From the NCBI GenBank assembly GCA_910578245.1, contig CAJTPC010000001.1, forward strand, positions 27,603 through 91,602: 64,000 nt of DNA, read 5' to 3'. Both the position numbers and the translations under genes were made by a program. The DNA is from an uncultured Christensenella sp. GTDB lineage: Bacteria; Bacillota; Clostridia; Christensenellales; UBA3700. Of this stretch, positions 41,698-62,941 are shown piece by piece (position 1 is the first letter of the stretch; each line of letters starts with the position of its first letter). The notes under the pieces were generated by a model that searched no databases, was not told the DNA's origin, and was given only the letters and a program-made list of their open reading frames with translations.

Positions 41698-43440
41698 CTA
41701 TATCAAAGAGCTTATTGCGTTCTGCAACTTCTCGTTACGCTCCAAACTCTTTTGTTTGTTCTCCGCTTTGGTAGAAACGTAGATTTTGAGTTTTGGCTCT
41801 GTCCCGCTCGGACGTATGCAAAGCCATTCATCATCGCCAAACTCGTATTTAATGACGTTGGCGCTTGGCAAGTCCGTCATCTCGATTCTGCCGTCTTCAA
41901 AGTATTTAACCATACCAGCTTCCAAATCGAGTTTGCTTATCATAGGCACGCCTGCAACTTCCGTCAAATCGGTATCTTTGAACTTCTTCATAATGTTGGC
42001 CATCTGTTCCATACCGTCTAAGCCCTTGAACGCAATAGACTTACTGCTCTCCACAAAATAGCCGAACTTGTCAAACAAGGAGTTGAGCTTCTCGTAAAGC
42101 GTAATATTTTTATAGGTATAATAGCAAGCCATCTCAGCAAAGAGCATACTTGCTACGACAGCGTCTTTATCTCGCGCGTGCGTACCCGAAAGATATCCAT
42201 AGCTCTCTTCATAACCAAACATAAAAGTATGCTTGCCGCTGCTCTCCCACTCTTTTATCTTTTCGCCGATAAACTTAAAGCCGGTAAGCACGTCGTACAC
42301 CGTTGCGCCGTAACTCTTAGCTATCTTGTCTGCAAGACGCGTCGTAACAATCGTCTTGACTACTGCGCTGTTTTTAGGTAAAGTTCCCTCTTCCTTATGA
42401 CGTAAAAGTACGTAGTCCATGAGCATTGCGCCAATCTGATTGCCGTTGAGAAGCATAAACTCGCCTTTGTCGTCCCTAATTGCAATACCCATTCTGTCGC
42501 TGTCGGGGTCGGTGCCTATGACGATATCGCTACCTAACTTGTTGGCAAGGTCAATACCCATTTTGAGCGCGTCAGGCTGTTCGGGATTGGGAACTGCGAC
42601 TGTAGAAAATTCCGTGTCGGGATACTTTTGCTCTTCAACGACAGATACGGAAATCCCCATTTTAGCAAGCATAGTCGTCACGGGTATAAAACCTGAACCG
42701 TGGATAGGCGAATAGACTATTTTAATATCCTTGCCCACTTTCTCTACCGCTTCTTTTGAAAGCGATAACTTGGATAAAGCGTCGTAATACTTATCGTCCA
42801 AACTCTTGCCGATAACCGTTATATGCTCGCTCAAGGCAAAGCCGTCTTTGCCCTCTATCTCTTTATGGCAAGTAGTCTTGACTTCCTCTTTTGGCAAACC
42901 AAAGTACGGCGTGTCTTGAATAAACTTGACTACGCCTGCGGTTGCCTCCGGCGACATTTGCGCTCCGTCATCGCCGTATACCTTATATCCGTTGTACTCC
43001 TTGGGATTGTGGCTTGCGGTAATCATAATACCGGCAATACAATTAAGTTCACGTACAGCAAAAGAACACATCGGCACAGGTCTGACGTTCTCAAATAAAG
43101 ATACTTTTATGCCGTTGGCGCCAAGCACTCTCGCCGACGTCAATGCAAATTCAAAGGACATACGCCTTGTATCGTAGGAAATAACTACGCCTCTCTTTGC
43201 TTCGTCCTTTCCAAGCGAATTGATATAGTCGCTCAGTCCCTTGGTAGCTCTTGCCACGGTATACTCGTTCATATTGGAAATGCCCATACAGATAGTTCCG
43301 CGCATACCTGCAGTACCAAACGCCAAAGGCAAAGTAAATCTCTCTTTGATTTCCTTCTCGTCGGATGCTATCTCCAAAAGTTCTTTCTTCTGTATCTCGC
43401 TTACGTTGTTAAGCCACAGTTCATAGTCATCTTTATACAT
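41698..43440 (-). CDS. phosphoglucomutase/phosphomannomutase (alpha-D-phosphohexomutase, PgcA-like)
   Basis: ITASHNPKEYNGYK active-site serine loop, GTDPDSDR metal loop. 580 aa. Confidence 0.9.
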   Translation of the reverse strand: MYKDDYELWLNNVSEIQKKELLEIASDEKEIKERFTLPLAFGTAGMRGTICMGISNMNEYTVARATKGLSDYINSLGKDEAKRGVVISYDTRRMSFEFALTSARVLGANGIKVSLFENVRPVPMCSFAVRELNCIAGIMITASHNPKEYNGYKVYGDDGAQMSPEATAGVVKFIQDTPYFGLPKEEVKTTCHKEIEGKDGFALSEHITVIGKSLDDKYYDALSKLSLSKEAVEKVGKDIKIVYSPIHGSGFIPVTTMLAKMGISVSVVEEQKYPDTEFSTVAVPNPEQPDALKMGIDLANKLGSDIVIGTDPDSDRMGIAIRDDKGEFMLLNGNQIGAMLMDYVLLRHKEEGTLPKNSAVVKTIVTTRLADKIAKSYGATVYDVLTGFKFIGEKIKEWESSGKHTFMFGYEESYGYLSGTHARDKDAVVASMLFAEMACYYTYKNITLYEKLNSLFDKFGYFVESSKSIAFKGLDGMEQMANIMKKFKDTDLTEVAGVPMISKLDLEAGMVKYFEDGRIEMTDLPSANVIKYEFGDDEWLCIRPSGTEPKLKIYVSTKAENKQKSLERNEKLQNAISSLI

Positions 43441-43722: not shown

Positions 43723-44325
43723 TTATTCCCTATCCTCGTCAAAATACGTAGCCATAATATCGGCAATGTGTACGAGCGTAGCGAAAGGGAATTGCGAAAA
43801 CGCTTTGCTTATGGAATAATCTCCGCCAATCACGCGCTTATCAAAACCGCCCATGTGCCAATTTATCGCCATAGCCTCTTCTCTGGTAAGACGCATAAAT
43901 CCGCTTATCATATACACTGACTTTTCGCCGTGTCCGTAAGGAAGTTTTTCGTCAACCTGGAAGTACGGCACTTGTTCCCAAGTACCGAATTCGTTCTTTT
44001 GATTACGAAGCGATACCTTGTAATAGTCTACCTTGCACAGGTCGTGCAAGAGCGTTGAAATAGCAATGCTTTCCGCCGAGATATTCTTGAAAAGTGAATT
44101 ATCCTTTCTGTTCTCCGCTTCGACAAGCTCTACCGCCCTGTCATATACGTTGAGCGAATGGTCGCATAGACCGCCCGTAACCGCATTGTGGAACTTAGAA
44201 CTTGCAGGCGCTACGAAGAAATCTGTATCGCAAAGCCACTTGAGAAGTTTGTCGCTTCCCTCCCTCTTGATATTCTCCTCGTATATCTTGATAAATCTCG
44301 CCTTGTTGAGTTCTATATCTACCAT
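43723..44325 (-). CDS. HD-domain phosphohydrolase (YhaM-like HD domain only)
   Basis: ASSKFHNAVTGGLCDHSLNV ... LLHDLCK ... HIAD: H, HD and D ligands of the HD superfamily. Confidence 0.7.
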   Translation of the reverse strand: MVDIELNKARFIKIYEENIKREGSDKLLKWLCDTDFFVAPASSKFHNAVTGGLCDHSLNVYDRAVELVEAENRKDNSLFKNISAESIAISTLLHDLCKVDYYKVSLRNQKNEFGTWEQVPYFQVDEKLPYGHGEKSVYMISGFMRLTREEAMAINWHMGGFDKRVIGGDYSISKAFSQFPFATLVHIADIMATYFDEDRE

Positions 44326-44412: not shown

Positions 44413-44441
44413 TAAAAAACGCAGGTCAACGACCTACGTCT
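44413..44441 (-). terminator. intrinsic terminator closing the WYL-DUF262-GmrSD operon
   Basis: The minus strand reads GACGTAGGTC-GTT-GACCTGCGT followed by TTTTTT, directly after the 55-aa ORF stop. Confidence 0.7.
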
Positions 44442-44450
44442 TTCTAGATA

Positions 44451-44618
44451 TTACTTCTCGACTAAGTCGTAGAATTTGAATTGAGAATTCTTTAGTCTAT
44501 TCTGCGCCCAATTCACGACATAGTTTCTATCGCCTCTAATAGTTTCCGTAAACGCAGCGCATCCCGACTTAAAAGCCATCTCGTTAAGATAATATCTTAT
44601 CTGCCAACTCTTTGCCAT
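44451..44618 (-). CDS. hypothetical 55-aa protein, last gene of the putative defence operon
   Basis: ATG at 44618 is preceded by AAAGGAGG with a 5-nt spacer. MAKSWQIRYYLNEMAFKSGCAAFTETIRGDRNYVVNWAQNRLKNSQFKFYDLVEK. No recognisable family. Confidence 0.5.
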   Translation of the reverse strand: MAKSWQIRYYLNEMAFKSGCAAFTETIRGDRNYVVNWAQNRLKNSQFKFYDLVEK

Positions 44619-44687
44619 AACAACCTCCTTTGTGATTTTATACTTCAATCATATCAAAGACGTTGTACCATAAACGGGATAACGAGG

Positions 44688-46577
44688 TTAATCCATATTA
44701 AATTTTAATAAATTTATCATTTCCTCTTGGTGTTTTTTATAACCGTCATTTCGCCAGATATCGTCACTCGTCGTCCAGGCGCTCATCAATCTCAACTTCA
44801 AGCTCCCATTTTTGGCGGCATCGTTAGTCTTCTTTGAAACGGGACTTGCATTGGAAAACCTAGAGTTAATCTCGCGAGAAACTATACAAAGATTGCCAAA
44901 GCTATCTCGCAAGTATTTCCCGTTTTCTTTATCTTCCCAAGGGGCGCAACTGCCACCTGAGGGGTGTTGGGGGTACCAATGCTCTACGGAATTTCTAAAC
45001 TCAAATACGAAATTACCAAAATCTAAACTTTTATATTTTTCATTATTATTGCGCTCTTTCCAAAGCAGATAGTCAAGATAGTTGAATATTATATGCGGAG
45101 TACCTACACCTTGCATATAATCCTTTTCTTGGACAAACTTCTTTACTTCTTCTTTTGCAATACTCTCAATCGAGTCCTTTGCGTTGCTTAGCTTACTTCC
45201 GTCACTACATAGACACTTCAGATATTGCGTTATCCAGTGCATGACTTTAGCCGACGTATACGACACACGCATACAAGACTGCAACTTAAGATTATCGTCA
45301 AATGATAGCCCGTCGAAAGTCGTATCATTGTAATAAGCGCTTTTCTTTGACTTAGAGTTCGAAACGCATAGCTCCTTTAGACTCCACTTGCCGTCTTTAT
45401 CGTCGGATAGATACTCACGCTTTATTACGTACTTGTCAAAGAGAAAACGACACTTCAGCAGACACTCGATAAATTGGAGAGAAAAACTTTCTTTATCCTC
45501 ATTATATTTATTCTTTATTACGTCGTCAAAGGTCTTTACGAGTTTCTTATCGTCTAGCGATAGCTCCTTGTTATCGTCTACAAGTACCTTTAACGTGTGC
45601 AGTAAGAAGTACGGAAAGGATATGATACTTTCAAATCTTACGTTCTTTCCTTCCTTGACAACTCCCTCGTATTTTTGCTCCAAACTTTGGCGCTTAGATA
45701 TTTCAATGGCGCTTAGTTTCGTCGTACTCTCGTCTGTCGTGTCCGACTGCTCGTCTATCATGTCCGACTGCTCGTCTGTCGGGTTTTTCCCGAGAAGCTC
45801 ACACAACTTATTAAAGTCGGGACTGCTATTCCACTCCTCGCCGAATAAAGCTTCTCTCTGCCTTGGCGAGAAACGCATCTGTATGTAGCAATTCATTTCT
45901 CTGCAAGCGTCCCAGACAATTGCAAACGCCTTTTGCTTAATCTTATCCCCTTTGAGAGGCTCCATAAGTTTTGCCTTGAGTATATCGTGTTGTTCAAGCT
46001 GTTCGCCTCGCACGTTCATAATCTCGAAATAGCGATTGAGGTCGGTATGCTTTGGCACCTCGATACGGAACAATTTGACCTTATTTAATTTCTCTCTAAA
46101 GGTATCCTTATCTATTACGTTTCCCTTTTCTTTAACGCTAAATTTAGCGATAATATGTTTCTTGCCTTCTCGCAACGACTCCTCTATTTTATCCTCGTCG
46201 TCCGTATTGACGAATAAGTTATCGCCAGTTTTATCTAATAAATAATTGAGAGTATAATTGGACCTTTCTCTACACTCAAAACTCAACCTGTCTTTGCCCC
46301 AACTATATCCTAGATAATTTAGCAAAAGATAGAGCGCTGTCAAACGCTGTTGACCGTCGATTACTTCGAATTTCCCGTCTTTATTGACGTGTACTATTAA
46401 CGACCCGAGATAATAATGGTCTGCGTCAAAATCGTAGATATCGTCAATCAACTGGCATATCTCATCGTTTCCCCAAGCAAAAGCGCGTTGGTACAGCGGA
46501 ATAATATATTGGTCGCTACCTTGCGAAAAAATCGTATTTTCGCCGTCTACGATATTAAGTACTTTAATTTCGCTCAT
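44688..46577 (-). CDS. GmrSD-family protein: N-terminal DUF262 (ParB/Srx-like NTPase) plus C-terminal DUF1524 His-Me-finger nuclease
   Basis: N-terminal IIPLYQRAFAWG and IDGQQRLTALYLL (DUF262). C-terminal FEFRNSVEHWYPQHP...GNLCIVSREINSRFSNASPVSK (DUF1524-type H...N...N). 629 aa. Confidence 0.8.
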   Translation of the reverse strand: MSEIKVLNIVDGENTIFSQGSDQYIIPLYQRAFAWGNDEICQLIDDIYDFDADHYYLGSLIVHVNKDGKFEVIDGQQRLTALYLLLNYLGYSWGKDRLSFECRERSNYTLNYLLDKTGDNLFVNTDDEDKIEESLREGKKHIIAKFSVKEKGNVIDKDTFREKLNKVKLFRIEVPKHTDLNRYFEIMNVRGEQLEQHDILKAKLMEPLKGDKIKQKAFAIVWDACREMNCYIQMRFSPRQREALFGEEWNSSPDFNKLCELLGKNPTDEQSDMIDEQSDTTDESTTKLSAIEISKRQSLEQKYEGVVKEGKNVRFESIISFPYFLLHTLKVLVDDNKELSLDDKKLVKTFDDVIKNKYNEDKESFSLQFIECLLKCRFLFDKYVIKREYLSDDKDGKWSLKELCVSNSKSKKSAYYNDTTFDGLSFDDNLKLQSCMRVSYTSAKVMHWITQYLKCLCSDGSKLSNAKDSIESIAKEEVKKFVQEKDYMQGVGTPHIIFNYLDYLLWKERNNNEKYKSLDFGNFVFEFRNSVEHWYPQHPSGGSCAPWEDKENGKYLRDSFGNLCIVSREINSRFSNASPVSKKTNDAAKNGSLKLRLMSAWTTSDDIWRNDGYKKHQEEMINLLKFNMD

Positions 46578-47868
46578 CTTTAACCCCCATTAGTCCTTTT
46601 AGCGTTTCATATAAGCCTTGCCATTTATCGGATCCAGGCTTATCTGGTTCTCTTACGACGTCAATACGCAGACTGGCAATTTCGCTATGACTACGCGCCG
46701 TAGCTATCTTAAAGAACATAGGTATATTATTGGTGTAGCCTCTATCCTCGCTACCTATTGCGTAATTATTAATTGAGCCAAGTCCAAGGTAATTCATATC
46801 AACTCGTATCATCATTGCCCATACGAAGAGCTTCTTCACCGCCATTTCGTCAAGCGAATGAAATCTATCGTAATAAAAAAGTAGAGCGCAATAGAAAAGA
46901 TTTACCGCATAACTAAAGCCTACGGAACGTTGATTCTCCTTTTCTTCCAAACACTCTTTGATGATTTGCAAAAACTTTTCACCTTTGCTAATCTCTTTTT
47001 TTAGTTCCTGCAAAAGGTCGTTGTAATACTCGACCATAAGGAAAAAGTCCTTACCTGCGCTAATAGGTTGGTCAATCTGAAAGTAAGGCATTGCCTTATA
47101 GACTCGTTGAGCGTACGTATACGATAAGCTTTGCGAATTTACTCCCTTATATTCGTCGATATCTTGCGCTGTGAAAGGTTTTGCTTTTTCCTTTCTAGCC
47201 CACTTCAATATTCGATATAAATAGTCGGAGAACAACCCTCTTATCTTAGACGGAGAAATATCTTCCCACCGCTTTATCACGTTGGCTTTTTCAAAATCAA
47301 ACTCGCTCATTTCCCGCAAGTGATAAGCCTTTAATAGGTCGTGCGGGTCAAGAGCTCTACCTCGAGTGTTCTGCGAGTCAAACAGTTGAAAAGCTTCCGT
47401 CTGTTCGTCTACTTCCAAGACTACCGCTTCTAAAATCTTATCAAATGCGTAGAGTATGTCTTTTTTCTTCCCCTTGTTAATTGACAGCCATTCTCTAATA
47501 AATCTATCGTTGTCGAAAATATTACTTTGAGATTCGCTATCGCCAAATGGATGCTCTAGTATTTTATTTCTAAAATTCAGGTCAAGCTCATACTTAATCA
47601 AGGACAGCGTAATGAGTCGCTGTTGTCCGTCGACGACCTCTAATTCTTCTTTGTCCTTTGACTTATATAAGATTACAGAGCCAACTCGGTACTTAAAGCC
47701 GTCGTAGTCAGGGCGTTTGCTGTCGGCTATAGCCGTACAAATATCCTCAAGCAAGTCGGACACGTTCTTGCGCGTCCACTTGTAAGGACGTTGATAATCA
47801 GGAATAACTATAGGCTTATTAAGCAGTTCTTCTACCGATACGGGTTTTTCAGGTATGTAATTACTCAT
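46564..47868 (-). CDS. DUF262-domain protein without a nuclease domain (GmrS-like)
   Basis: VIPDYQRPYKWTRKN and VDGQQRLITLSL. The C-terminal ~250 aa are helical-looking with no H-N-H/DUF1524 motif. ATG at 47868 has AAGGAG 6 nt upstream, overlying the WYL stop. The 3' end overlaps the next gene by 14 nt. Confidence 0.75.
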   Translation of the reverse strand: MSNYIPEKPVSVEELLNKPIVIPDYQRPYKWTRKNVSDLLEDICTAIADSKRPDYDGFKYRVGSVILYKSKDKEELEVVDGQQRLITLSLIKYELDLNFRNKILEHPFGDSESQSNIFDNDRFIREWLSINKGKKKDILYAFDKILEAVVLEVDEQTEAFQLFDSQNTRGRALDPHDLLKAYHLREMSEFDFEKANVIKRWEDISPSKIRGLFSDYLYRILKWARKEKAKPFTAQDIDEYKGVNSQSLSYTYAQRVYKAMPYFQIDQPISAGKDFFLMVEYYNDLLQELKKEISKGEKFLQIIKECLEEKENQRSVGFSYAVNLFYCALLFYYDRFHSLDEMAVKKLFVWAMMIRVDMNYLGLGSINNYAIGSEDRGYTNNIPMFFKIATARSHSEIASLRIDVVREPDKPGSDKWQGLYETLKGLMGVKDERN

Positions 47869-47882
47869 ATAACTCCTTGCAA

Positions 47883-48863
47883 TCAATCGTATTTCTTTTT
47901 AGCTTTACTTATGTTTTCCTTGATTTGTTCCCTCAAAGACAAGGGCGAGATAATCTCCACGCTATTGAGGTACTGCATAGCCCAATACTCCATTGCGTAT
48001 GGGCTGGCTTTGACGGTAACGATATGTCTGCCGTCCATCTCTTGTGTCTTGAAGTCGAAGCCAAACCAGTCAACGACTTGGTCAATCATCCATTCGCCTT
48101 CAATGATAAAAGAAATATTTTCAGGTTCATCAGAAAACATATACGGCAACGCTGAAGAAAAACGCTTGTAATCTATACCGTTCTTATAGCCGTCGATAGA
48201 GCGTAAATTTGTTGCGTTGTCTTCCAAAAGCTCTATATTTGTGATTCTATCTAGACGAAAATAGCTTATATGTTGCCACTTTTCTTGATAAGCCATTAAA
48301 AAGTATCTTTGATTGTGAAGTATCATTTGGTAGGGGCTGACGGTATGTATCGCCGAGCGGTGGAACTTCTTGTCCTTGCCGTACTTGTTGTAGTCGAACT
48401 TGATTTTACGGTTTTTCTCTATCGCCTCGTCTATGACCTCAATATTATAAAACAGCGCCACATTCTCCGACTTATTCCAGTCGTTGACGGAATACACATT
48501 CTTTATATGTGATTTGAAATATTTATTAGAAAGCGTAGAAAGTTTCTCTATCAGCGCTTTAGAATGTTTTGCAGTAATATGTTGACTTGCCAGTACGCTG
48601 TCGGAGAGTAAGCGAAGTTCTGAGTCCTCAAACAAACGAGAGTTGAGATATGAGCCTTTCTTGGTTGTTTCCACATCATAGCCTACGTCTTGCAACAAAG
48701 CTATGTTACGCCCTATGGCTTTGCGCTCAATGGTAACATTATACATTAAATCCAACTTGTTGGTTATTTCATCGTGTGTCATTGGATGCGCGCTATCTGT
48801 ATATCTTTCCAAAATCTGCAGTATACGAATAAGCGCAAGTTTCTTTGGCTCAAATGATTGCAT
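47883..48863 (-). CDS. WYL-domain transcriptional regulator (wHTH-WYL-WCX, BrxR/CapW-like)
   Basis: N-terminal winged-HTH (LALIRILQILERYTDSAHPMTHDEITNKL). Central WYL-type beta-barrel segment (KIKFDYNKY...VSPYQMILHNQRYFLMAY...ISYFRLDRITNIELL). 326 aa. Confidence 0.8.
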   Translation of the reverse strand: MQSFEPKKLALIRILQILERYTDSAHPMTHDEITNKLDLMYNVTIERKAIGRNIALLQDVGYDVETTKKGSYLNSRLFEDSELRLLSDSVLASQHITAKHSKALIEKLSTLSNKYFKSHIKNVYSVNDWNKSENVALFYNIEVIDEAIEKNRKIKFDYNKYGKDKKFHRSAIHTVSPYQMILHNQRYFLMAYQEKWQHISYFRLDRITNIELLEDNATNLRSIDGYKNGIDYKRFSSALPYMFSDEPENISFIIEGEWMIDQVVDWFGFDFKTQEMDGRHIVTVKASPYAMEYWAMQYLNSVEIISPLSLREQIKENISKAKKKYD

Positions 48864-48889
48864 ATTGTATCCTCGTTATATTTAGGGGT

Positions 48890-48918
48890 ATTATACAATA
48901 TTTATTGCGCCTAGTCAA
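48890..48918 (-). promoter_or_regulatory. consensus sigma-A promoter of the WYL operon, with a palindrome in the spacer
   Basis: The minus strand reads TTGACT-17 nt-TATAAT, and the -35 box overlaps the stop codon of the upstream protease gene. The spacer contains the 12-bp palindrome CAATAAATATTG (48896-48907). Confidence 0.6.
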
Positions 48919-50185
48919 CATTATATCCTGAAGCAATGCGTATGATATCGTCATAAATCAATATCTCTTTTGCAAGTAATTCTTTGGCGATTGCATCCAA
49001 AAGCGCTTTGTGTTTTGATAAAAGTTCCTTTGCTTCATTATAATATTCATCTAGTAATTGCGTTGCTTTGATTTGATTCTTATCAATCTGAGCATAAGAT
49101 TGACTATCATTATACGCGTCTGTCGTATAGCAGTATTCAAACCCGTGAACACAAATCGACTGCAAATTGTCTTGTATTATTCCCATAGCTTTCTCAACGT
49201 CTTTTGCTACCCCAACGTCTACAATTCCAAATTGCAATTCGCTACCGGCTTTTCCCGCAAGCGCCGTTAAGATTTTGTAGCGTATATCTTCAAAATTCGA
49301 AGTTTTTACTTCTTCTCCAACTCTACATAAACCGCATGCGCCGTCGTATCCGCACCGTCCAATGGCAAGACAACCGACGCTCCTATGAGCAAGCAAATTC
49401 ATTACGGCGTGTCCCGCTTCATGGTAAGCTATAAAAGGCTTAGCCTTATCGTCTTTTGGCAGAGACGCGCGCTCAATCAACACCATAGATATTGCCTCGC
49501 GTATATGGTCAAGCGTTATTTCTGACGCTCCGTCGAACACGGCGCAAATACCCGCCTCGTTGACCACTCTCTCAAGTGTGGCGCAAGAACATTTGCACAA
49601 AATATGAGCTAAAGATTCTGGCTTAACGTCAGGAGATATTCTTTTTGACGCAAGATAATGACGAATTATTTTTACGGAGTCCTCATACGGCGGCGCAGAA
49701 AATTTCAACCTCTTCCCAAATCGTCCGTCGCGCAAAAGTGAGCCTGGCAAATTGTCAATATCGTTGGAAGTAGCTATGACGAACACGTCTGAAGATTGAA
49801 TATCCTCAAGTCCCGTCTGAATAGCCACAAACTCTTCCTTGTTGCAATCTTGTCGCAAATTATCTTCTGCGAACTTATCCATATCGTCAAAAAATATAAT
49901 TGATGGAGCTTCTTTGATAGCATTTTCAAAAGTTACCTTAATTTCATTTACAAATTCGCCGTTTGACTTATTTTTTTTACAATGAAAAACTTTTCTGCCA
50001 CACTGCGAAATAAATGCTTTTGCCATTAGCGTTTTGCCAAGTCCCGGTTCTCCATATAGCAAGATAGCTTTTGGCAAAGCTATACCCAAAGTTTCGTACT
50101 TCTCTCGATTATGTAATGTGTCGCATAGTCGAATCATTTCTTGTTTCTCTAATTCGTATCCGAATATCTTATCAAATTCGTTCAT
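48911..50185 (-). CDS. soluble FtsH-like protein: AAA+ ATPase fused to an M41-type zinc metallopeptidase, with no transmembrane region
   Basis: Walker A GEPGLGKT, Walker B IIFFDDMD, SRH/arginine-finger region ATSNDIDNLPGSLLRDGRFGKR, HEXXH site YHEAGHAV. 424 aa. The N-terminus has no hydrophobic segment. Confidence 0.8.
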   Translation of the reverse strand: MNEFDKIFGYELEKQEMIRLCDTLHNREKYETLGIALPKAILLYGEPGLGKTLMAKAFISQCGRKVFHCKKNKSNGEFVNEIKVTFENAIKEAPSIIFFDDMDKFAEDNLRQDCNKEEFVAIQTGLEDIQSSDVFVIATSNDIDNLPGSLLRDGRFGKRLKFSAPPYEDSVKIIRHYLASKRISPDVKPESLAHILCKCSCATLERVVNEAGICAVFDGASEITLDHIREAISMVLIERASLPKDDKAKPFIAYHEAGHAVMNLLAHRSVGCLAIGRCGYDGACGLCRVGEEVKTSNFEDIRYKILTALAGKAGSELQFGIVDVGVAKDVEKAMGIIQDNLQSICVHGFEYCYTTDAYNDSQSYAQIDKNQIKATQLLDEYYNEAKELLSKHKALLDAIAKELLAKEILIYDDIIRIASGYNVD

Positions 50186-50257
50186 AATAGTTTTCTCCTT
50201 TTTGTTTATTAAAAGTCTAACATACTAATTATCCCAAAAATGTCGCAACACCTTGAA

Positions 50258-50287: not shown

Positions 50288-51274
50288 TTACGCGCCTATT
50301 GACGAAGGCTGATAAATCTTATCAAACCATGGGAAATTGCTGTCGGGGGGTTGAGGATTATCGTCTTGCGTAGCTTTCTTGCGAATTATCTTGCCTTGCA
50401 CGGGCAAGTAGTTGTCTTTTCTCAGCTCTTTTTGGAATATTACCTTACCGTCCTTAACGTACTCGATAATAGCTCTTGACTTATATCCTACGGCGCTCTT
50501 TTTAGCAACGGTGTATTCGCCGTCAGCATCGCGTTGCACTTCGCCAGACAATTCTTCCGACCACTCGACAAGAGGCAAAGGCGGTTGTAAAACTTCAGTG
50601 ATTTCGCTGCGCAAATTTATCTTATACGGCAGCGGATGTCCATACACATCGAAGTAAACCTTTTTATTTTTAGTATAACCGTTGACGATTACGTCATAGT
50701 CACTGTCGTTGAGAAGCACCAAATCTATAAACTCGCTGACTGTAGCGTCTTGCGATAAACCGCAATACGACGATGGCAAAGAGTGAGACTGTACTGACTT
50801 CGCTGTCATTCCCGCTCTTATCCAAGAGTTGTAGAGCGTAGTCGATACTTGACAAACTCCACCGCCAACACCCTGAGTATACTCGCCGTTGACGATTACC
50901 TTAGCGTTCTTGTACCCTCTCTCTTCGCTACGCAATCCCACTACGGTATTAAAAGATAGCGTTTCGCCCTTTTTGACTACAATCCAACAAAAGTTACTGC
51001 TTGCCAATGCTACGTTGTGAGCGCGCTCTTCTTTAGAAGTCGAATAATCGGTGTTAAAAGAACTGATAAGTTGCATTTTAGGAGAAAAGCCGTAGGGATT
51101 GGGACTGCTCATAGCGTGAGCGCTCTGCATATTTTGTGCTGCGTATAAGAATACACCGCCTGCTGTAGTAGTTACTAAGGCGACACTGATAATAAATAAA
51201 AATATGCAGATATTTATATTTCTACGGCTTTTCACAATAATATTTTGTGAGCAAGGAATAAATATATACTGCAT
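50288..51274 (-). CDS. VanW-family protein (N-terminal membrane anchor)
   Basis: GGGVCQVSTTLYN motif of the VanW domain, plus an N-terminal TM segment. Confidence 0.8.
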   Translation of the reverse strand: MQYIFIPCSQNIIVKSRRNINICIFLFIISVALVTTTAGGVFLYAAQNMQSAHAMSSPNPYGFSPKMQLISSFNTDYSTSKEERAHNVALASSNFCWIVVKKGETLSFNTVVGLRSEERGYKNAKVIVNGEYTQGVGGGVCQVSTTLYNSWIRAGMTAKSVQSHSLPSSYCGLSQDATVSEFIDLVLLNDSDYDVIVNGYTKNKKVYFDVYGHPLPYKINLRSEITEVLQPPLPLVEWSEELSGEVQRDADGEYTVAKKSAVGYKSRAIIEYVKDGKVIFQKELRKDNYLPVQGKIIRKKATQDDNPQPPDSNFPWFDKIYQPSSIGA

Positions 51275-61960: not shown

Positions 61961-62941
61961 ATGGCAGGAGCAAAGCAGAAGATTAAAATATTAAAATTAT
62001 ATGAAATTCTCTCAAGCGAGAGCGATGAAAATAATCCCCTATCCACCCAATATCTAATCGAAAGACTAAAAGCCGAGGGTATAAGCGTAGAGCGCAAGAC
62101 GCTATATGACGATATAGCCTTGCTCAACGAATGCGGTTATGAAATTATGCAGGTACGCAAAAAACAAAATATGTATTACGTAAGCGACAGAAGTTTTGAC
62201 GTTGCTGAAATACGTATACTCATTGACGCAGTTGAAGCATCGAGTTTTATCACGCCGGAAAAGACAAACAGGCTTGTAAACAAAATCGCGTCCCTTGCCG
62301 GCTCGCATAAAGGCAAAGTCATAAAAAACAACATCGTAGTTTTCGACACTACCAAGCGCGACAACGAGCAAATATATTACAACGTCTTCAACATCAACGA
62401 AGCAATTATAGCTAAGAAAAAGATAAGTTTCAAATACTTCAAGTATAACGCTAAGGGCGAAAAGACGGTAATGCGCAATGACAAGCCCTATACCGTCAAT
62501 CCAATCGCTACTATGGTAAGCAACGACAATTATTATCTCATTTGTTCAAGCGACAAATACAAAGACGTCGCGCACTATCGCATAGACAGAATGGAGAACG
62601 TCAAAATTATGAGGGAGGATTTCACTCTGCCAGACGAGCTGAAGAACTTTGACCCCAGACGCAATAAAAAACAGCTTTTTTCAATGTATCTCGGTCAGAT
62701 GCAAAACGTCACCTTTGAAATTACTCCCGATATAGTCGAAGTTATTTTTGATAAATTCGGCAAGAATACCAAGCTCTACCCTTACGGCGAAAAATACCGC
62801 TTTACGGCGGAAATACAGATAAGCGATTCCTTTTTCGGTTGGTGTATGGGACTTGGCGCGAATATAGAAATATTATCTCCGAGAGAAGTCAAAGCGCAGT
62901 ATCTGCAAAAACTTCACGCCGTGATATGCGCGTATAAATAA
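61961..62941 (+). CDS. WYL-domain transcriptional regulator (paralog of 47883-48863)
   Basis: Same length (326 aa) and layout: wHTH (KILKLYEILSSESDENNPLSTQYLIERL), WYL segment (KISFKYFKYN...VNPIATMVSNDNYYLICS...VAHYRIDRMENVKIM), C-terminal extension. Confidence 0.8.
   Translation: MAGAKQKIKILKLYEILSSESDENNPLSTQYLIERLKAEGISVERKTLYDDIALLNECGYEIMQVRKKQNMYYVSDRSFDVAEIRILIDAVEASSFITPEKTNRLVNKIASLAGSHKGKVIKNNIVVFDTTKRDNEQIYYNVFNINEAIIAKKKISFKYFKYNAKGEKTVMRNDKPYTVNPIATMVSNDNYYLICSSDKYKDVAHYRIDRMENVKIMREDFTLPDELKNFDPRRNKKQLFSMYLGQMQNVTFEITPDIVEVIFDKFGKNTKLYPYGEKYRFTAEIQISDSFFGWCMGLGANIEILSPREVKAQYLQKLHAVICAYK

What the first reader, a model, noticed from the sequence alone, without database searches (positions are those of the whole stretch)
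44413..48918. Self-contained WYL-regulated operon encoding a nuclease-less DUF262 protein, a full GmrSD-like DUF262-DUF1524 protein and a 55-aa ORF: candidate new defence-system architecture
Seen: a discrete transcription unit is bounded by a consensus promoter (TTGACT-17-TATAAT, 48890-48918) and an intrinsic terminator (44413-44441). Gene 1 is a wHTH-WYL regulator, and its stop codon lies on the RBS of gene 2. Gene 2 is a 434-aa protein with the DUF262 motifs DYQRPYKW / DGQQRL and no nuclease motif. Gene 3 overlaps gene 2 by 14 nt. It has DUF262 (LYQRAFAW / DGQQRLT) plus a DUF1524-type His-Me finger (VEHWYPQHP...GNLCIVSREINSRFSN). Gene 4 is a 55-aa ORF with a strong RBS. The flanking genes are housekeeping (pgm, HD hydrolase, VanW). 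By eye the block looks more AT-rich than its neighbours, but I did not compute this. Established: DUF262+DUF1524 proteins (GmrSD, BrxU, SspE) are modification-dependent or defence nucleases. WYL regulators of the BrxR/CapW type head many defence islands. Inference: this is an anti-phage/anti-MGE system in which a catalytically different DUF262 paralog partners a GmrSD-type effector under WYL control. I cannot match this four-gene arrangement to a named system.
Basis: partly seen in the sequence, partly recalled or inferred. Interest (0 to 1): 0.8.

Follow-up and report, generated by a model that had tools for sequence, protein, structure and literature searches.

The report
WYL-controlled TgvAB-type restriction cassette
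This is a mobile anti-phage cassette whose two central genes belong to the already named TgvAB family of two-protein, modification-dependent DNA-cutting enzymes; what has not been described is its packaging with a WYL regulator, a conserved 55-residue protein and a neighbouring soluble FtsH-like protease that carries the same promoter box.

Summary
All four genes, their domains, the 14-nt overlap, the promoter and the terminator are real. Two side remarks fail. The block is not AT-richer than its flanks. The gene immediately upstream is a soluble AAA+/M41 (FtsH-like) protease, not housekeeping.

Genes 2 and 3 are homologues of Vibrio cholerae TgvA and TgvB. TgvA has the same GmrSD_N+DUF7834 architecture. 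Gene 2 versus TgvA gives 28% identity (E 4e-29), and gene 3 versus TgvB gives E 2e-31. The "unnamed architecture" is therefore the TgvAB two-protein type IV restriction system described in 2024.

The cassette WYL–TgvA-like–TgvB-like–55-aa protein recurs at 53–83% identity in unrelated contexts on small mobilizable elements. Its promoter is phylogenetically footprinted. In one relative the nuclease pair is replaced by an unrelated 348-aa protein from a family with weak PD-(D/E)XK matches.

The FtsH-like protease family lies near WYL genes far more often than control loci do (25/31 versus 1/46 loci). In the window its promoter carries the box TTGCGAC-N8-GATAAT, found in the WYL promoters of the relatives, which suggests co-regulation.

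Verdict: a new variant of a known kind, of moderate interest. The protease–WYL link is the part worth following up.

The parts
50229..50248 (-). Box TTGCGACATTTTTGGGATAA (TTGCGAC-N8-GATAAT), 44-63 nt upstream of the AAA-M41 start codon. There is no good -35 (TCAAGG). It follows the VanW terminator hairpin.
   Evidence: This is the only match in the 64-kb window at up to 3 mismatches, against 0.16 expected. The same box sits in the same register in the WYL promoters of L001-6, L089 and L171-179, and upstream of AAA-M41 in L088, L089 and L090. Sequence read.
48911..50185 (-). Soluble FtsH-like protease (AAA+ ATPase plus Peptidase_M41, 424 aa, no membrane or periplasmic part). It is a frequent upstream neighbour of the cassette and is probably co-regulated with it.
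   Evidence: PF00004 at 1e-23 and PF01434 at 8.4e-16. It aligns over its full length to cytosolic FtsH structures. Walker A, Walker B and HEAGH are invariant in 29 homologues. It lies upstream of WYL in L001-7 and L088-91. A WYL gene lies within 10 kb in 25/31 family loci against 1/46 controls.
48890..48918 (-). Promoter of the WYL operon (TTGACT-17-TATAAT). The -35 overlaps the AAA-M41 stop codon.
   Evidence: 11/12 match. The hexamers are invariant and the spacer is conserved in 7 related cassettes whatever lies upstream. In the window itself the spacer box has diverged (3 of 7 in TTGCGAC).
47883..48863 (-). HTH-WYL-WCX transcription factor (326 aa).
   Evidence: PF13280 at 1.9e-13 and PADLOC WYL models at 5e-25. 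It is the most conserved protein of the cassette, at 76-83% identity in relatives. The only PDB sequence hit is PafC, E 0.0027.
46564..47868 (-). TgvA-like subunit: DUF262 (ParB-like NTPase) plus helical DUF7834, without a nuclease (434 aa).
   Evidence: Pfam. 28% identity to V. cholerae TgvA over 363 aa, E 4e-29; TgvA has the same Pfam architecture. The QR, DGQQR and FxxxN motifs are invariant. AF2 model pLDDT 81 with an all-helical C-domain; best folds DndI, SspE and BrxU.
44688..46577 (-). TgvB-like subunit: DUF262 plus a DUF1524 His-Me finger nuclease (629 aa). It overlaps gene 2 by 14 nt.
   Evidence: Pfam. 28% identity to TgvB over 410 aa, E 2e-31. 36% identity over the full length to the Klebsiella plasmid partner, E 9e-96. 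Y29-Q30-R31, D74-R78, E532-H533, N562, N571 and N576 are invariant.
44451..44618 (-). 55-aa protein (called sm55 here) with a strong ribosome-binding site. It is a small beta-alpha-beta-alpha-beta domain of unknown function.
   Evidence: 12 database clusters at 67-98% identity, one of them on more than 430 contigs. It is always the distal gene of the cassette, including behind the swapped effector in L088 and L089. AF2 pLDDT 94.9; no significant PDB fold match.
44414..44438 (-). Intrinsic terminator closing the operon.
   Evidence: An 8-bp stem (one G-T pair), a 3-nt loop and then TTTTTT, read directly. The scan listed the same hairpin on the + strand.
43723..44325 (-). HD-domain protein (200 aa) with its own consensus promoter (44384-44356). 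It is part of the insertion and may be linked to the protease.
   Evidence: PF01966 at 6.3e-5. It lies inside the segment that is absent between VanW and pgm in relatives. Homologues at 32% identity follow AAA-M41 directly in L148 (WYL-AAA-HD) and L117.

Best explanation
The locus is a horizontally mobile defence cassette. Its core is a TgvAB-type, two-subunit, modification-dependent (type IV) restriction enzyme.

Gene 2 (TgvA-like) is a DUF262 NTPase with a helical DUF7834 domain and no nuclease. Gene 3 (TgvB-like) is a DUF262 NTPase with a His-Me DUF1524 nuclease. The two are translationally coupled. By analogy with TgvAB, they act together: NTP binding and hydrolysis by both ParB-like DUF262 domains license the single nuclease domain to cut incoming DNA that carries hypermodified bases. 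Which modification is recognised here is unknown.

The HTH-WYL-WCX protein encoded first controls the operon from a conserved sigma-70 promoter. The spacer of that promoter holds a conserved box, TTGCGAC, centred near -24. I infer that the regulator binds this box and responds to a nucleic-acid ligand, as other WYL factors do.

The same box, in the same register to a -10 element but without a -35, precedes the adjacent soluble FtsH-like AAA+/M41 protease. The protease is therefore probably in the same regulon. Its role is open: turnover of the regulator, of the nuclease or of the 55-aa protein, or degradation of phage counter-defence proteins.

The conserved 55-aa protein is an accessory factor of the regulatory frame rather than of the nuclease, because it stays when the nuclease is swapped.

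Shown: the homologies, motifs, synteny, promoter conservation and island context. Inferred: complex formation, the target, DNA binding by the WYL protein, and any role of the protease or of the 55-aa protein.
For: - TgvA/TgvB homology and identical architecture.
- In V. cholerae both proteins, both DGQQR motifs and the TgvB His-Me residues are required, and the targets are phages with glucosylated or arabinosylated 5hmC.
- The catalytic motifs are invariant in the window proteins and their homologues.
- The pair is obligate. All 8 viral-contig gene 2 homologues with sequence downstream have a gene 3 homologue next to them. 872 plasmid records hold a full-length gene 2 homologue; the two Klebsiella records I opened have an overlapping DUF262-DUF1524 partner. 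Klebsiella plasmid pairs are listed as TgvAB hits by the authors.
- The cassette WYL-g2-g3-sm55 is conserved at 53-83% identity in at least five different contexts.
- The promoter is footprinted.
- The box is shared with the AAA-M41 promoter.
- The effector is swapped in L088 while AAA, WYL and sm55 stay at 67, 76 and 75% identity.
- In the three nearest informative relatives VanW abuts pgm, so the 6.8-kb segment is an insertion.
- AAA-M41 and WYL are linked: 25/31 against 1/46 loci, Fisher p 1.5e-13.
Against: - There is no experiment on this cassette. Identity to V. cholerae TgvAB is only 28%, so target specificity cannot be transferred.
- The window's own WYL promoter has a degraded box (3 of 7 in TTGCGAC), whereas its AAA-M41 promoter has a perfect one. 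That is not what simple autoregulation predicts.
- The most widespread version of the cassette (L171-L178, more than 430 contigs) has no AAA-M41 at all. A DnaB_C-like ATPase of the mobile element sits there instead, so the protease is not needed for the core.
- The AAA-WYL statistics count loci that are not all independent, and defence genes cluster anyway.
- The WYL family includes both repressors and activators, so the sign of regulation is unknown.
Confidence: 0.75

Rival explanations
1. The real functional unit is larger. A soluble FtsH-like protease, a WYL regulator and the 55-aa protein form an undescribed protease-based sensing/regulatory module. This module drives interchangeable nuclease effectors (TgvAB-like pair, PD-(D/E)XK, HD, DUF2779/Cas4-like). 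The window shows one instance, and the TgvAB pair is only the cargo.
For: - AAA-M41 lies directly upstream of WYL in the window, L001-7 and L088-91, and divergently adjacent to it in L098-105.
- A WYL gene lies within 5 kb in 21/31 loci and within 10 kb in 25/31, against 1/46 controls.
- The promoter box is shared.
- The partners vary: PDDEXK_4, DUF2779, SNF2 helicase and HD.
- L148 has a compact WYL-AAA-HD operon with overlapping ORFs.
- The ATPase and HEXXH motifs are invariant.
- PADLOC v2 has no model for it beyond weak IetA hits, and three full-text searches found no description.
Against: - The commonest cassette version lacks AAA-M41.
- 6/31 well-flanked AAA-M41 loci have no WYL gene at all.
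- Among more distant family members (35-40% identity) the box was not found.
- Co-location inside defence islands does not prove a functional link.
Confidence: 0.35
2. AAA-M41 (and the HD gene) are independent cargo or defence genes that merely sit next to the WYL-TgvAB cassette in a defence island. The four-gene operon is self-contained.
For: - The homology between cassettes breaks about 10 nt upstream of the -35, and cassettes exist with a DnaB_C-like gene or nothing upstream.
- AAA-M41 has its own promoter and is preceded by a terminator.
- The HD gene has its own promoter after the operon terminator.
Against: - The 20-nt box is shared between the AAA-M41 promoter and the WYL promoters.
- The AAA-WYL proximity across divergent loci and in both orientations is very strong.
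Confidence: 0.35
3. The cassette serves the mobile element rather than the host. It would act as an exclusion or addiction module against competing plasmids/ICEs, or as a stabilising toxin-like nuclease kept in check by the small protein, and not as anti-phage restriction.
For: - The cassette sits next to Mob_Pre/relaxase and serine recombinase genes.
- The pair is very common on conjugative Klebsiella plasmids: 824 of 1014 matching records are conjugative.
- Truncated cassettes keep the small ORF.
Against: - The characterised homologue TgvAB restricts phages with modified DNA and is not reported to be toxic.
- sm55 stays when the nuclease is exchanged, which argues against a nuclease-specific antitoxin.
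Confidence: 0.1

Closest known systems
[quoted passage not shown]
   Same: - The first gene has DUF262+DUF7834 without a nuclease, and the second has DUF262+DUF1524.
- The ORFs overlap (8 bp in V. cholerae, 14 nt here).
- The QR/DGQQR/FxxxN motifs are present in both proteins, and the His-Me H...N...N motif in the second.
- Sequence homology extends through the non-DUF262 parts.
   Different: - Identity is only 28%.
- The pair is not embedded in a type I R-M operon.
- It is headed by a WYL regulator, followed by a conserved 55-aa gene, and flanked by a soluble FtsH-like protease.
- The host is an uncultured gut Clostridia lineage.
- The target modification is unknown.
GrwAB, the two-protein GmrSD-like system of WASA-lineage V. 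cholerae (PMC12409362, PMC12137116)
   Same: It is a two-protein DUF262 system in which only one partner carries DUF1524.
   Different: The nuclease-less partner GrwB has a long C-terminus with several unknown domains. Gene 2 is instead the compact TgvA type (DUF7834).
Single-chain GmrSD family enzymes (Eco94GmrSD, BrxU, SspE, DndI)
   Same: The DUF262 NTPase and DUF1524 His-Me nuclease domains are shared. The best structural matches of the gene 2 model are DndI, SspE and BrxU.
   Different: These act as single polypeptides. PADLOC HEC-06, Orf5 and SspE models match only the N-terminal ~90 residues of genes 2 and 3.
WYL-domain regulators: BrxR/CapW (repressors of defence operons) and PafBC/DriD (ssDNA-activated activators; PafBC uses a -26 element instead of a -35, PMC8635444)
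   Same: - The HTH-WYL-WCX architecture at the head of a defence operon is shared.
- The conserved box at about -27 to -21 next to a canonical -10, and a partner promoter (AAA-M41) without a -35, resemble PafBC hybrid promoters.
- The only PDB sequence hit is PafC.
   Different: - It is a single polypeptide, whereas PafBC is a heterodimer.
- Its own promoter also has a consensus -35.
- Binding site, ligand and sign of regulation are untested.
- Similarity to BrxR and CapW was not tested directly.
IetAS (Gao et al. 2020): FtsH-family AAA+ ATPase IetA plus the serine protease IetS
   Same: A defence-associated FtsH-like AAA+ ATPase is coupled to a protease activity. There are weak IetA hits (PADLOC 2.4e-16; NCBIfam IteA 50 bits).
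   Different: - The score is far below the IteA cut-off (50 against 510 bits).
- The protease is an M41 metalloprotease fused in cis, not a separate subtilase.
- There is no FtsH extracellular or transmembrane part.

Membership tests
TgvAB two-protein type IV restriction system | The first protein has an N-terminal DUF262 domain with QR, DGQQR and FxxxN motifs and no DUF1524. | tested here: met
   Gene 2 has GmrSD_N at 1.5e-29 and no GmrSD_C. Y25-Q26-R27, D80-R84 and F163...N167 are invariant. The model shows no beta-beta-alpha-Me fold.
TgvAB two-protein type IV restriction system | The first protein is homologous to TgvA beyond DUF262 (same C-terminal domain). | tested here: met
   V. cholerae TgvA (first 399 aa, from Table S3/S5 of PMC11411939) has DUF7834 at 3.4e-38. 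Gene 2 aligns to it over residues 12-348 at 28% identity, E 4e-29.
TgvAB two-protein type IV restriction system | The second protein has DUF262 plus DUF1524 with a His-Me finger (H...N...H/N) and is homologous to TgvB. | tested here: met
   Pfam. H533, N562, N571 and N576 are invariant. 28% identity to TgvB residues 23-399, E 2e-31. Only the first 399 residues of TgvB were available, so the nuclease domains were not aligned directly.
TgvAB two-protein type IV restriction system | The two genes are adjacent, co-directional and overlapping, and co-occur obligatorily. | tested here: met
   14-nt overlap. 8/8 viral-contig homologues with sequence downstream, all cassette relatives, and the two Klebsiella plasmid records I opened have the partner.
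TgvAB two-protein type IV restriction system | Both proteins are required for defence, and the target is DNA with glycosylated 5hmC. | not testable with these tools
   This needs phage challenge of genes 2+3, gene 2 alone and gene 3 alone. It is known only for the V. cholerae proteins.
TgvAB two-protein type IV restriction system | The pair is embedded between the hsd genes of a type I R-M operon (the origin of the name). | tested here: not met
   No hsd genes flank the pair in the window. The authors themselves report 1,341 stand-alone tgvAB hits against 79 embedded ones, so embedding does not define the family.
Single-chain GmrSD / BrxU / SspE / HEC-06 | One polypeptide carries both DUF262 and DUF1524 and is sufficient alone, with full-length matches to the family models. 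| tested here: inconclusive
   Gene 3 has the architecture. However, PADLOC HEC-06, Orf5 and SspE models align only to about residues 13-93, no NCBIfam model matches, and its homologue TgvB is insufficient alone.
BrxR/CapW-type WYL defence regulators | The protein has an HTH-WYL-WCX architecture, is encoded first in a defence operon, and binds its own promoter. | tested here: inconclusive
   The architecture and position are met. The promoter, with its spacer box, is conserved. DNA binding, ligand and repression are not testable here. The only PDB sequence hit is PafC, not BrxR or CapW.
FtsH (membrane AAA+ zinc protease) | N-terminal transmembrane helices plus a periplasmic domain, then AAA+ and M41 domains; a housekeeping single-copy gene. 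| tested here: not met
   The AAA+ domain starts at about residue 40 with nothing before it. The TIGR01241 score is 172 against a cut-off of 600. A canonical 647-aa FtsH with FtsH_ext sits elsewhere in L001. The AAA+ and M41 catalytic motifs are intact.
IetAS | An IetA ATPase (equivalog model) paired with the IetS serine protease. | tested here: not met
   NF042959 scores 50 bits against a cut-off of 510. No subtilase neighbour is present.

The most novel reading that the evidence does not exclude
Soluble FtsH-like AAA+/M41 proteases together with WYL regulators (and, in one lineage, the 55-aa protein) form a widespread, so far undescribed control module of defence islands in gut bacteria. In this reading the WYL factor switches on both a nuclease operon and the protease through a PafBC-like '-24 box'. 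The protease then processes the regulator, the effector or phage counter-defence proteins. The nuclease cargo is interchangeable (TgvAB-like, PD-(D/E)XK, HD, Cas4-like).
Probability: 0.3. Interest if true: 0.75.

Novelty: new variant of a known kind. Interest (0 to 1): 0.5.

Why it matters
TgvAB raised an open question: why does a complete GmrSD-like nuclease need a second, nuclease-less DUF262 protein? This locus shows that the same pair is common in gut Firmicutes and Bacteroidales mobile elements, where it is placed under a WYL regulator. That offers a distant, compact homologue pair (28% identity) for comparative structure and function work.

The less expected result concerns regulation. 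A conserved promoter box is shared between the WYL operon family and a soluble FtsH-like protease. The protease family associates strongly with WYL genes next to different nucleases. Exchange of the nuclease inside an otherwise conserved frame is documented. If the protease is part of the circuit, it would add regulated proteolysis by an FtsH-type machine to the known ways in which defence operons are controlled. It would also give a testable Gram-positive example of a PafBC-like promoter architecture outside Actinobacteria.

Tried and rejected
- AT-rich island signature: rejected, since GC is the same as in the flanks.
- Flanking direct or inverted repeats that would mark an integration site: none convincing.
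- tRNA/integrase-type island borders: no integrase lies among the window ORFs next to the block. The island status rests on the VanW-pgm adjacency in relatives at only 55-57% pgm identity, so it is suggestive, not strict.
- DUF7834 as a degenerate copy of the gene 3 middle or nuclease region: profile-profile alignment matches only the DUF262 part, and the model is all-helical.
- sm55 function by fold: no significant PDB match. The best E-value is 0.24, to Lrp/AsnC-type RAM domains. There is no Pfam, PADLOC or NCBIfam hit.
- A link between sm55 and the 106-aa ORF that replaces it in L001-3: no similarity.
- PADLOC naming: only N-terminal DUF262 matches to HEC-06, Orf5 and SspE, so no system assignment. 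PADLOC v2.0 predates TgvAB.
- Searches for a published AAA-M41+WYL system: nothing relevant. The FtsH ternary systems of Kaur et al. 2020 use a double-AAA FtsH with MoxR-vWA and are different.
- The 9-mer box motif in distant AAA-M41 or WYL loci (below 50% identity): absent, so the shared-box argument holds only for the close lineage.
- A promoter-like site inside gene 3 (45529-45501) next to a 17-nt repeat of the WYL 5' leader (45494-45510 and 48868-48884): judged to be chance, with no ORF start there.
The window's species is not among the representatives (best match 60% identity), so no empty-site comparison at strain level was possible.

Full report
**1. What is there**

On the minus strand the window encodes, in order:
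- VanW (50288-51274).
- A 424-aa AAA+/Peptidase_M41 protein (48911-50185).
- A 326-aa HTH-WYL-WCX protein (47883-48863).
- A 434-aa GmrSD_N+DUF7834 protein (gene 2, 46564-47868).
- A 629-aa GmrSD_N+GmrSD_C protein (gene 3, 44688-46577).
- A 55-aa ORF (sm55, 44451-44618).
- A hairpin-T6 terminator (44414-44438).
- An HD-domain protein (43723-44325).
- pgm (41698-43440).

Two side statements fail. GC content inside the block (0.39-0.42) does not differ from the surroundings. The gene that abuts the promoter is not housekeeping.

**2. Genes 2 and 3 are TgvA and TgvB homologues**

Two 2024 papers describe TgvAB of V. cholerae VPI-2. TgvA has DUF262 only and TgvB has DUF262+DUF1524. Their ORFs overlap by 8 bp. 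Both proteins, both DGQQR motifs and the TgvB His-Me residues are required. The targets are phages with glucosylated or arabinosylated 5hmC.

Table S3/S5 of PMC11411939 gives the sequences, which allowed direct tests:
- TgvA carries the same Pfam pair, GmrSD_N + DUF7834 at 3.4e-38.
- Gene 2 aligns to TgvA through both domains: 28% identity over 363 residues, E 4e-29.
- Gene 3 aligns to TgvB well past the DUF262 domain: 28% over 410 residues, E 2e-31.

The pair recurs widely. 872 plasmid records, almost all Klebsiella, hold a full-length gene 2 homologue. In the two records I opened it is followed by an overlapping DUF262-DUF1524 gene. These proteins are 31-35% and 34-36% identical to genes 2 and 3. 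The TgvAB authors list Klebsiella plasmid pairs among their hits. A 2026 survey links TgvAB to the same plasmid type. In viral contigs, 8 of 8 gene 2 homologues with sequence downstream have a gene 3 homologue next to them.

The motifs are intact and invariant. The gene 2 model has a DUF262 domain plus an all-helical domain, and it resembles DndI, SspE and BrxU. Its C-terminal domain does not align to gene 3.

The "unnamed architecture" is therefore a member of a named, experimentally characterised kind. A second two-protein system, GrwAB, also exists.

**3. The four-gene cassette is a real, mobile unit**

WYL, gene 2, gene 3 and sm55 recur together in unrelated surroundings, at 76-83%, 61-63%, 53-55% and 75-78% identity respectively:
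- beside a relaxase and a serine recombinase (L001, L003);
- beside sporulation genes (L002);
- beside a TnsA-like gene (L004-6);
- in a very common version (sm55 cluster on more than 430 contigs), between a Mob_Pre relaxase/DnaB_C-like gene and an HTH_3 gene (L171-L178).

Truncated copies also exist (L170, L173, L179). In three relatives of the host (pgm 55-57% identical; uncultured Clostridia of Christensenellales type), VanW lies directly next to pgm. The 6.8 kb from AAA-M41 to HD is therefore an insertion relative to them.

The promoter upstream of WYL is footprinted. Its -35, its -10 and nearly the whole spacer (AATTGCGACAAATTTGG) are conserved in seven cassettes. The similarity ends about 10 nt upstream of the -35, whatever gene lies there.

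**4. The effector can be swapped**

L088 keeps AAA-M41 (67%), WYL (76%), the promoter, sm55 (75%) and a Cys-rich 62-aa ORF. In place of the TgvAB-like pair it carries one unrelated 348-aa protein. L089-L091 are similar. That protein has no Pfam hit of its own. Relatives of its family, and a neighbouring family, match PDDEXK_4. sm55 therefore belongs to the regulatory frame rather than to the nuclease. It is a confident small beta-alpha-beta-alpha-beta domain (pLDDT 94.9) without a significant structural or family match.

**5. The overlooked protease**

The 424-aa protein aligns end to end with the cytosolic part of FtsH, but it lacks the membrane and periplasmic parts. It belongs to a large family of ~425-aa proteins (3,501 hits at E below 1e-10) with invariant Walker A, Walker B and HEAGH motifs.

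In 80 metagenomic loci of this family (35-67% identity), 31 have at least 2.5 kb of sequence on both sides. Of those 31:
- 21 have a WYL gene within 5 kb;
- 25 have one within 10 kb;
- 9 have one directly adjacent, either co-directional or divergent.

The control is 1 of 46 pgm-centred loci (Fisher p 1.5e-13). The other neighbours vary: the TgvAB-like pair, PDDEXK_4, DUF2779/Cas4-like, an SNF2 helicase, Metallophos, and in L148 and L117 a homologue of the window's HD protein.

In the window, the AAA-M41 gene is preceded by the VanW terminator and then by TTGCGACATTTTTGGGATAAT. This is the same TTGCGAC-N8-(G/T)ATAAT box, in the same register, as in the WYL promoters of the relatives, but with no -35. 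It is the only match in 64 kb at up to 3 mismatches, against 0.16 expected. The box also precedes AAA-M41 in L088, L089 and L090.

[quoted passage not shown] PafC is the only PDB sequence hit of the WYL protein.

Caveats:
- The window's own WYL promoter has a degraded box.
- The commonest cassette version has no AAA-M41.
- Distant family members lack the box.

**6. Mechanism**

Most likely this is a WYL-controlled TgvAB-type type IV restriction enzyme.
- Shown: the homologies, motifs, synteny, promoter conservation and mobility.
- Inferred from TgvAB and from GmrSD/BrxU/SspE work: the two DUF262 NTPase domains sense modified DNA and gate the single His-Me nuclease.
- Inferred from WYL biology (PafBC, DriD, BrxR, CapW): the regulator binds the box and answers to a nucleic-acid signal.
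- Open: the role of the protease and of sm55.

The rival readings are (i) a larger protease-WYL module with interchangeable effectors, (ii) mere neighbourhood of independent genes, and (iii) a function for the mobile element.

**7. Novelty and score**

The core pair is already known, and WYL-headed defence operons are known. Three things were not found in the literature searched or in PADLOC v2: the conserved WYL-TgvAB-sm55 cassette, its effector exchange, and the link between soluble FtsH-like proteases and WYL regulators.

I rate it a new variant of a known kind, interest 0.5. The most novel reading not excluded is a protease-WYL control module. I give it a probability of about 0.3, and it would deserve about 0.75 if true.

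Noticed in passing
window 61961-62941 (+): A second HTH-WYL-WCX gene (326 aa, 27% identical to the cassette's WYL). It lies among an amidase, a polysaccharide deacetylase and a Na:alanine symporter, with no obvious defence partner.
   Followed up: partly
window 43723-44325 (-), L148:2566-3159, L117:1411-1836: An HD-domain protein with its own consensus promoter (44384-44356) lies inside the inserted segment. Homologues at 32% identity directly follow AAA-M41 in L148 (a compact WYL-AAA-HD operon) and in L117. It gives weak matches to the HD domain of MobH/TraI relaxases.
   Followed up: partly
window 45729-45784 (within gene 3): Three tandem 21-nt units encode an acidic repeat (…DEQSDMIDEQSDTTDES…) in the poorly conserved linker of the TgvB-like protein.
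   Followed up: no
L004:11422-11610, L171:9186-9374, L088 ~7171, L089 ~13434: A Cys-rich 62-aa ORF (MSSLSK..CCTC..C..C..C..) accompanies sm55 in most related cassettes, in swapped order in L089. It is absent from the window.
   Followed up: partly
L001:7189-7932 and L001:11253-11573 (also L002, L003): One cassette lineage has an extra 247-aa gene without a Pfam match between WYL and the TgvA-like gene. It also has an unrelated 106-aa ORF in place of sm55.
   Followed up: no
L170, L173, L179: Decayed cassettes. The TgvA-like gene is truncated (L170, and L173 next to a serine recombinase). In L179 a deletion fuses the WYL N-terminus to the GmrSD_C part. sm55 and the downstream HTH_3 gene are retained in all three.
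   Followed up: no
L171-L178:3895-4713: In the commonest cassette version a 272-aa DnaB_C/KaiC-like ATPase, preceded by a Mob_Pre relaxase, occupies the place of AAA-M41 upstream of the WYL promoter. It is probably backbone of a small mobilizable element.
   Followed up: partly
L131 (688-8346 and 9959-11269): One island holds WYL plus a PDDEXK_4 nuclease, then a TgvAB-like pair (47% and 45% identity), then AAA-M41. This shows the components stacked together.
   Followed up: no
window 45494-45529 (-) and 48868-48884: A second 11/12 promoter-like site lies inside gene 3, next to a 17-nt near-repeat of the WYL 5' leader. It is probably chance in AT-rich DNA.
   Followed up: no
L009, L010, L012: In the nearest available relatives (uncultured Clostridia, Candidatus Stercoripulliclostridium), VanW lies about 100 bp upstream of pgm. 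The window's species is absent from the GTDB representative set; the best pgm identity is 60%.
   Followed up: yes
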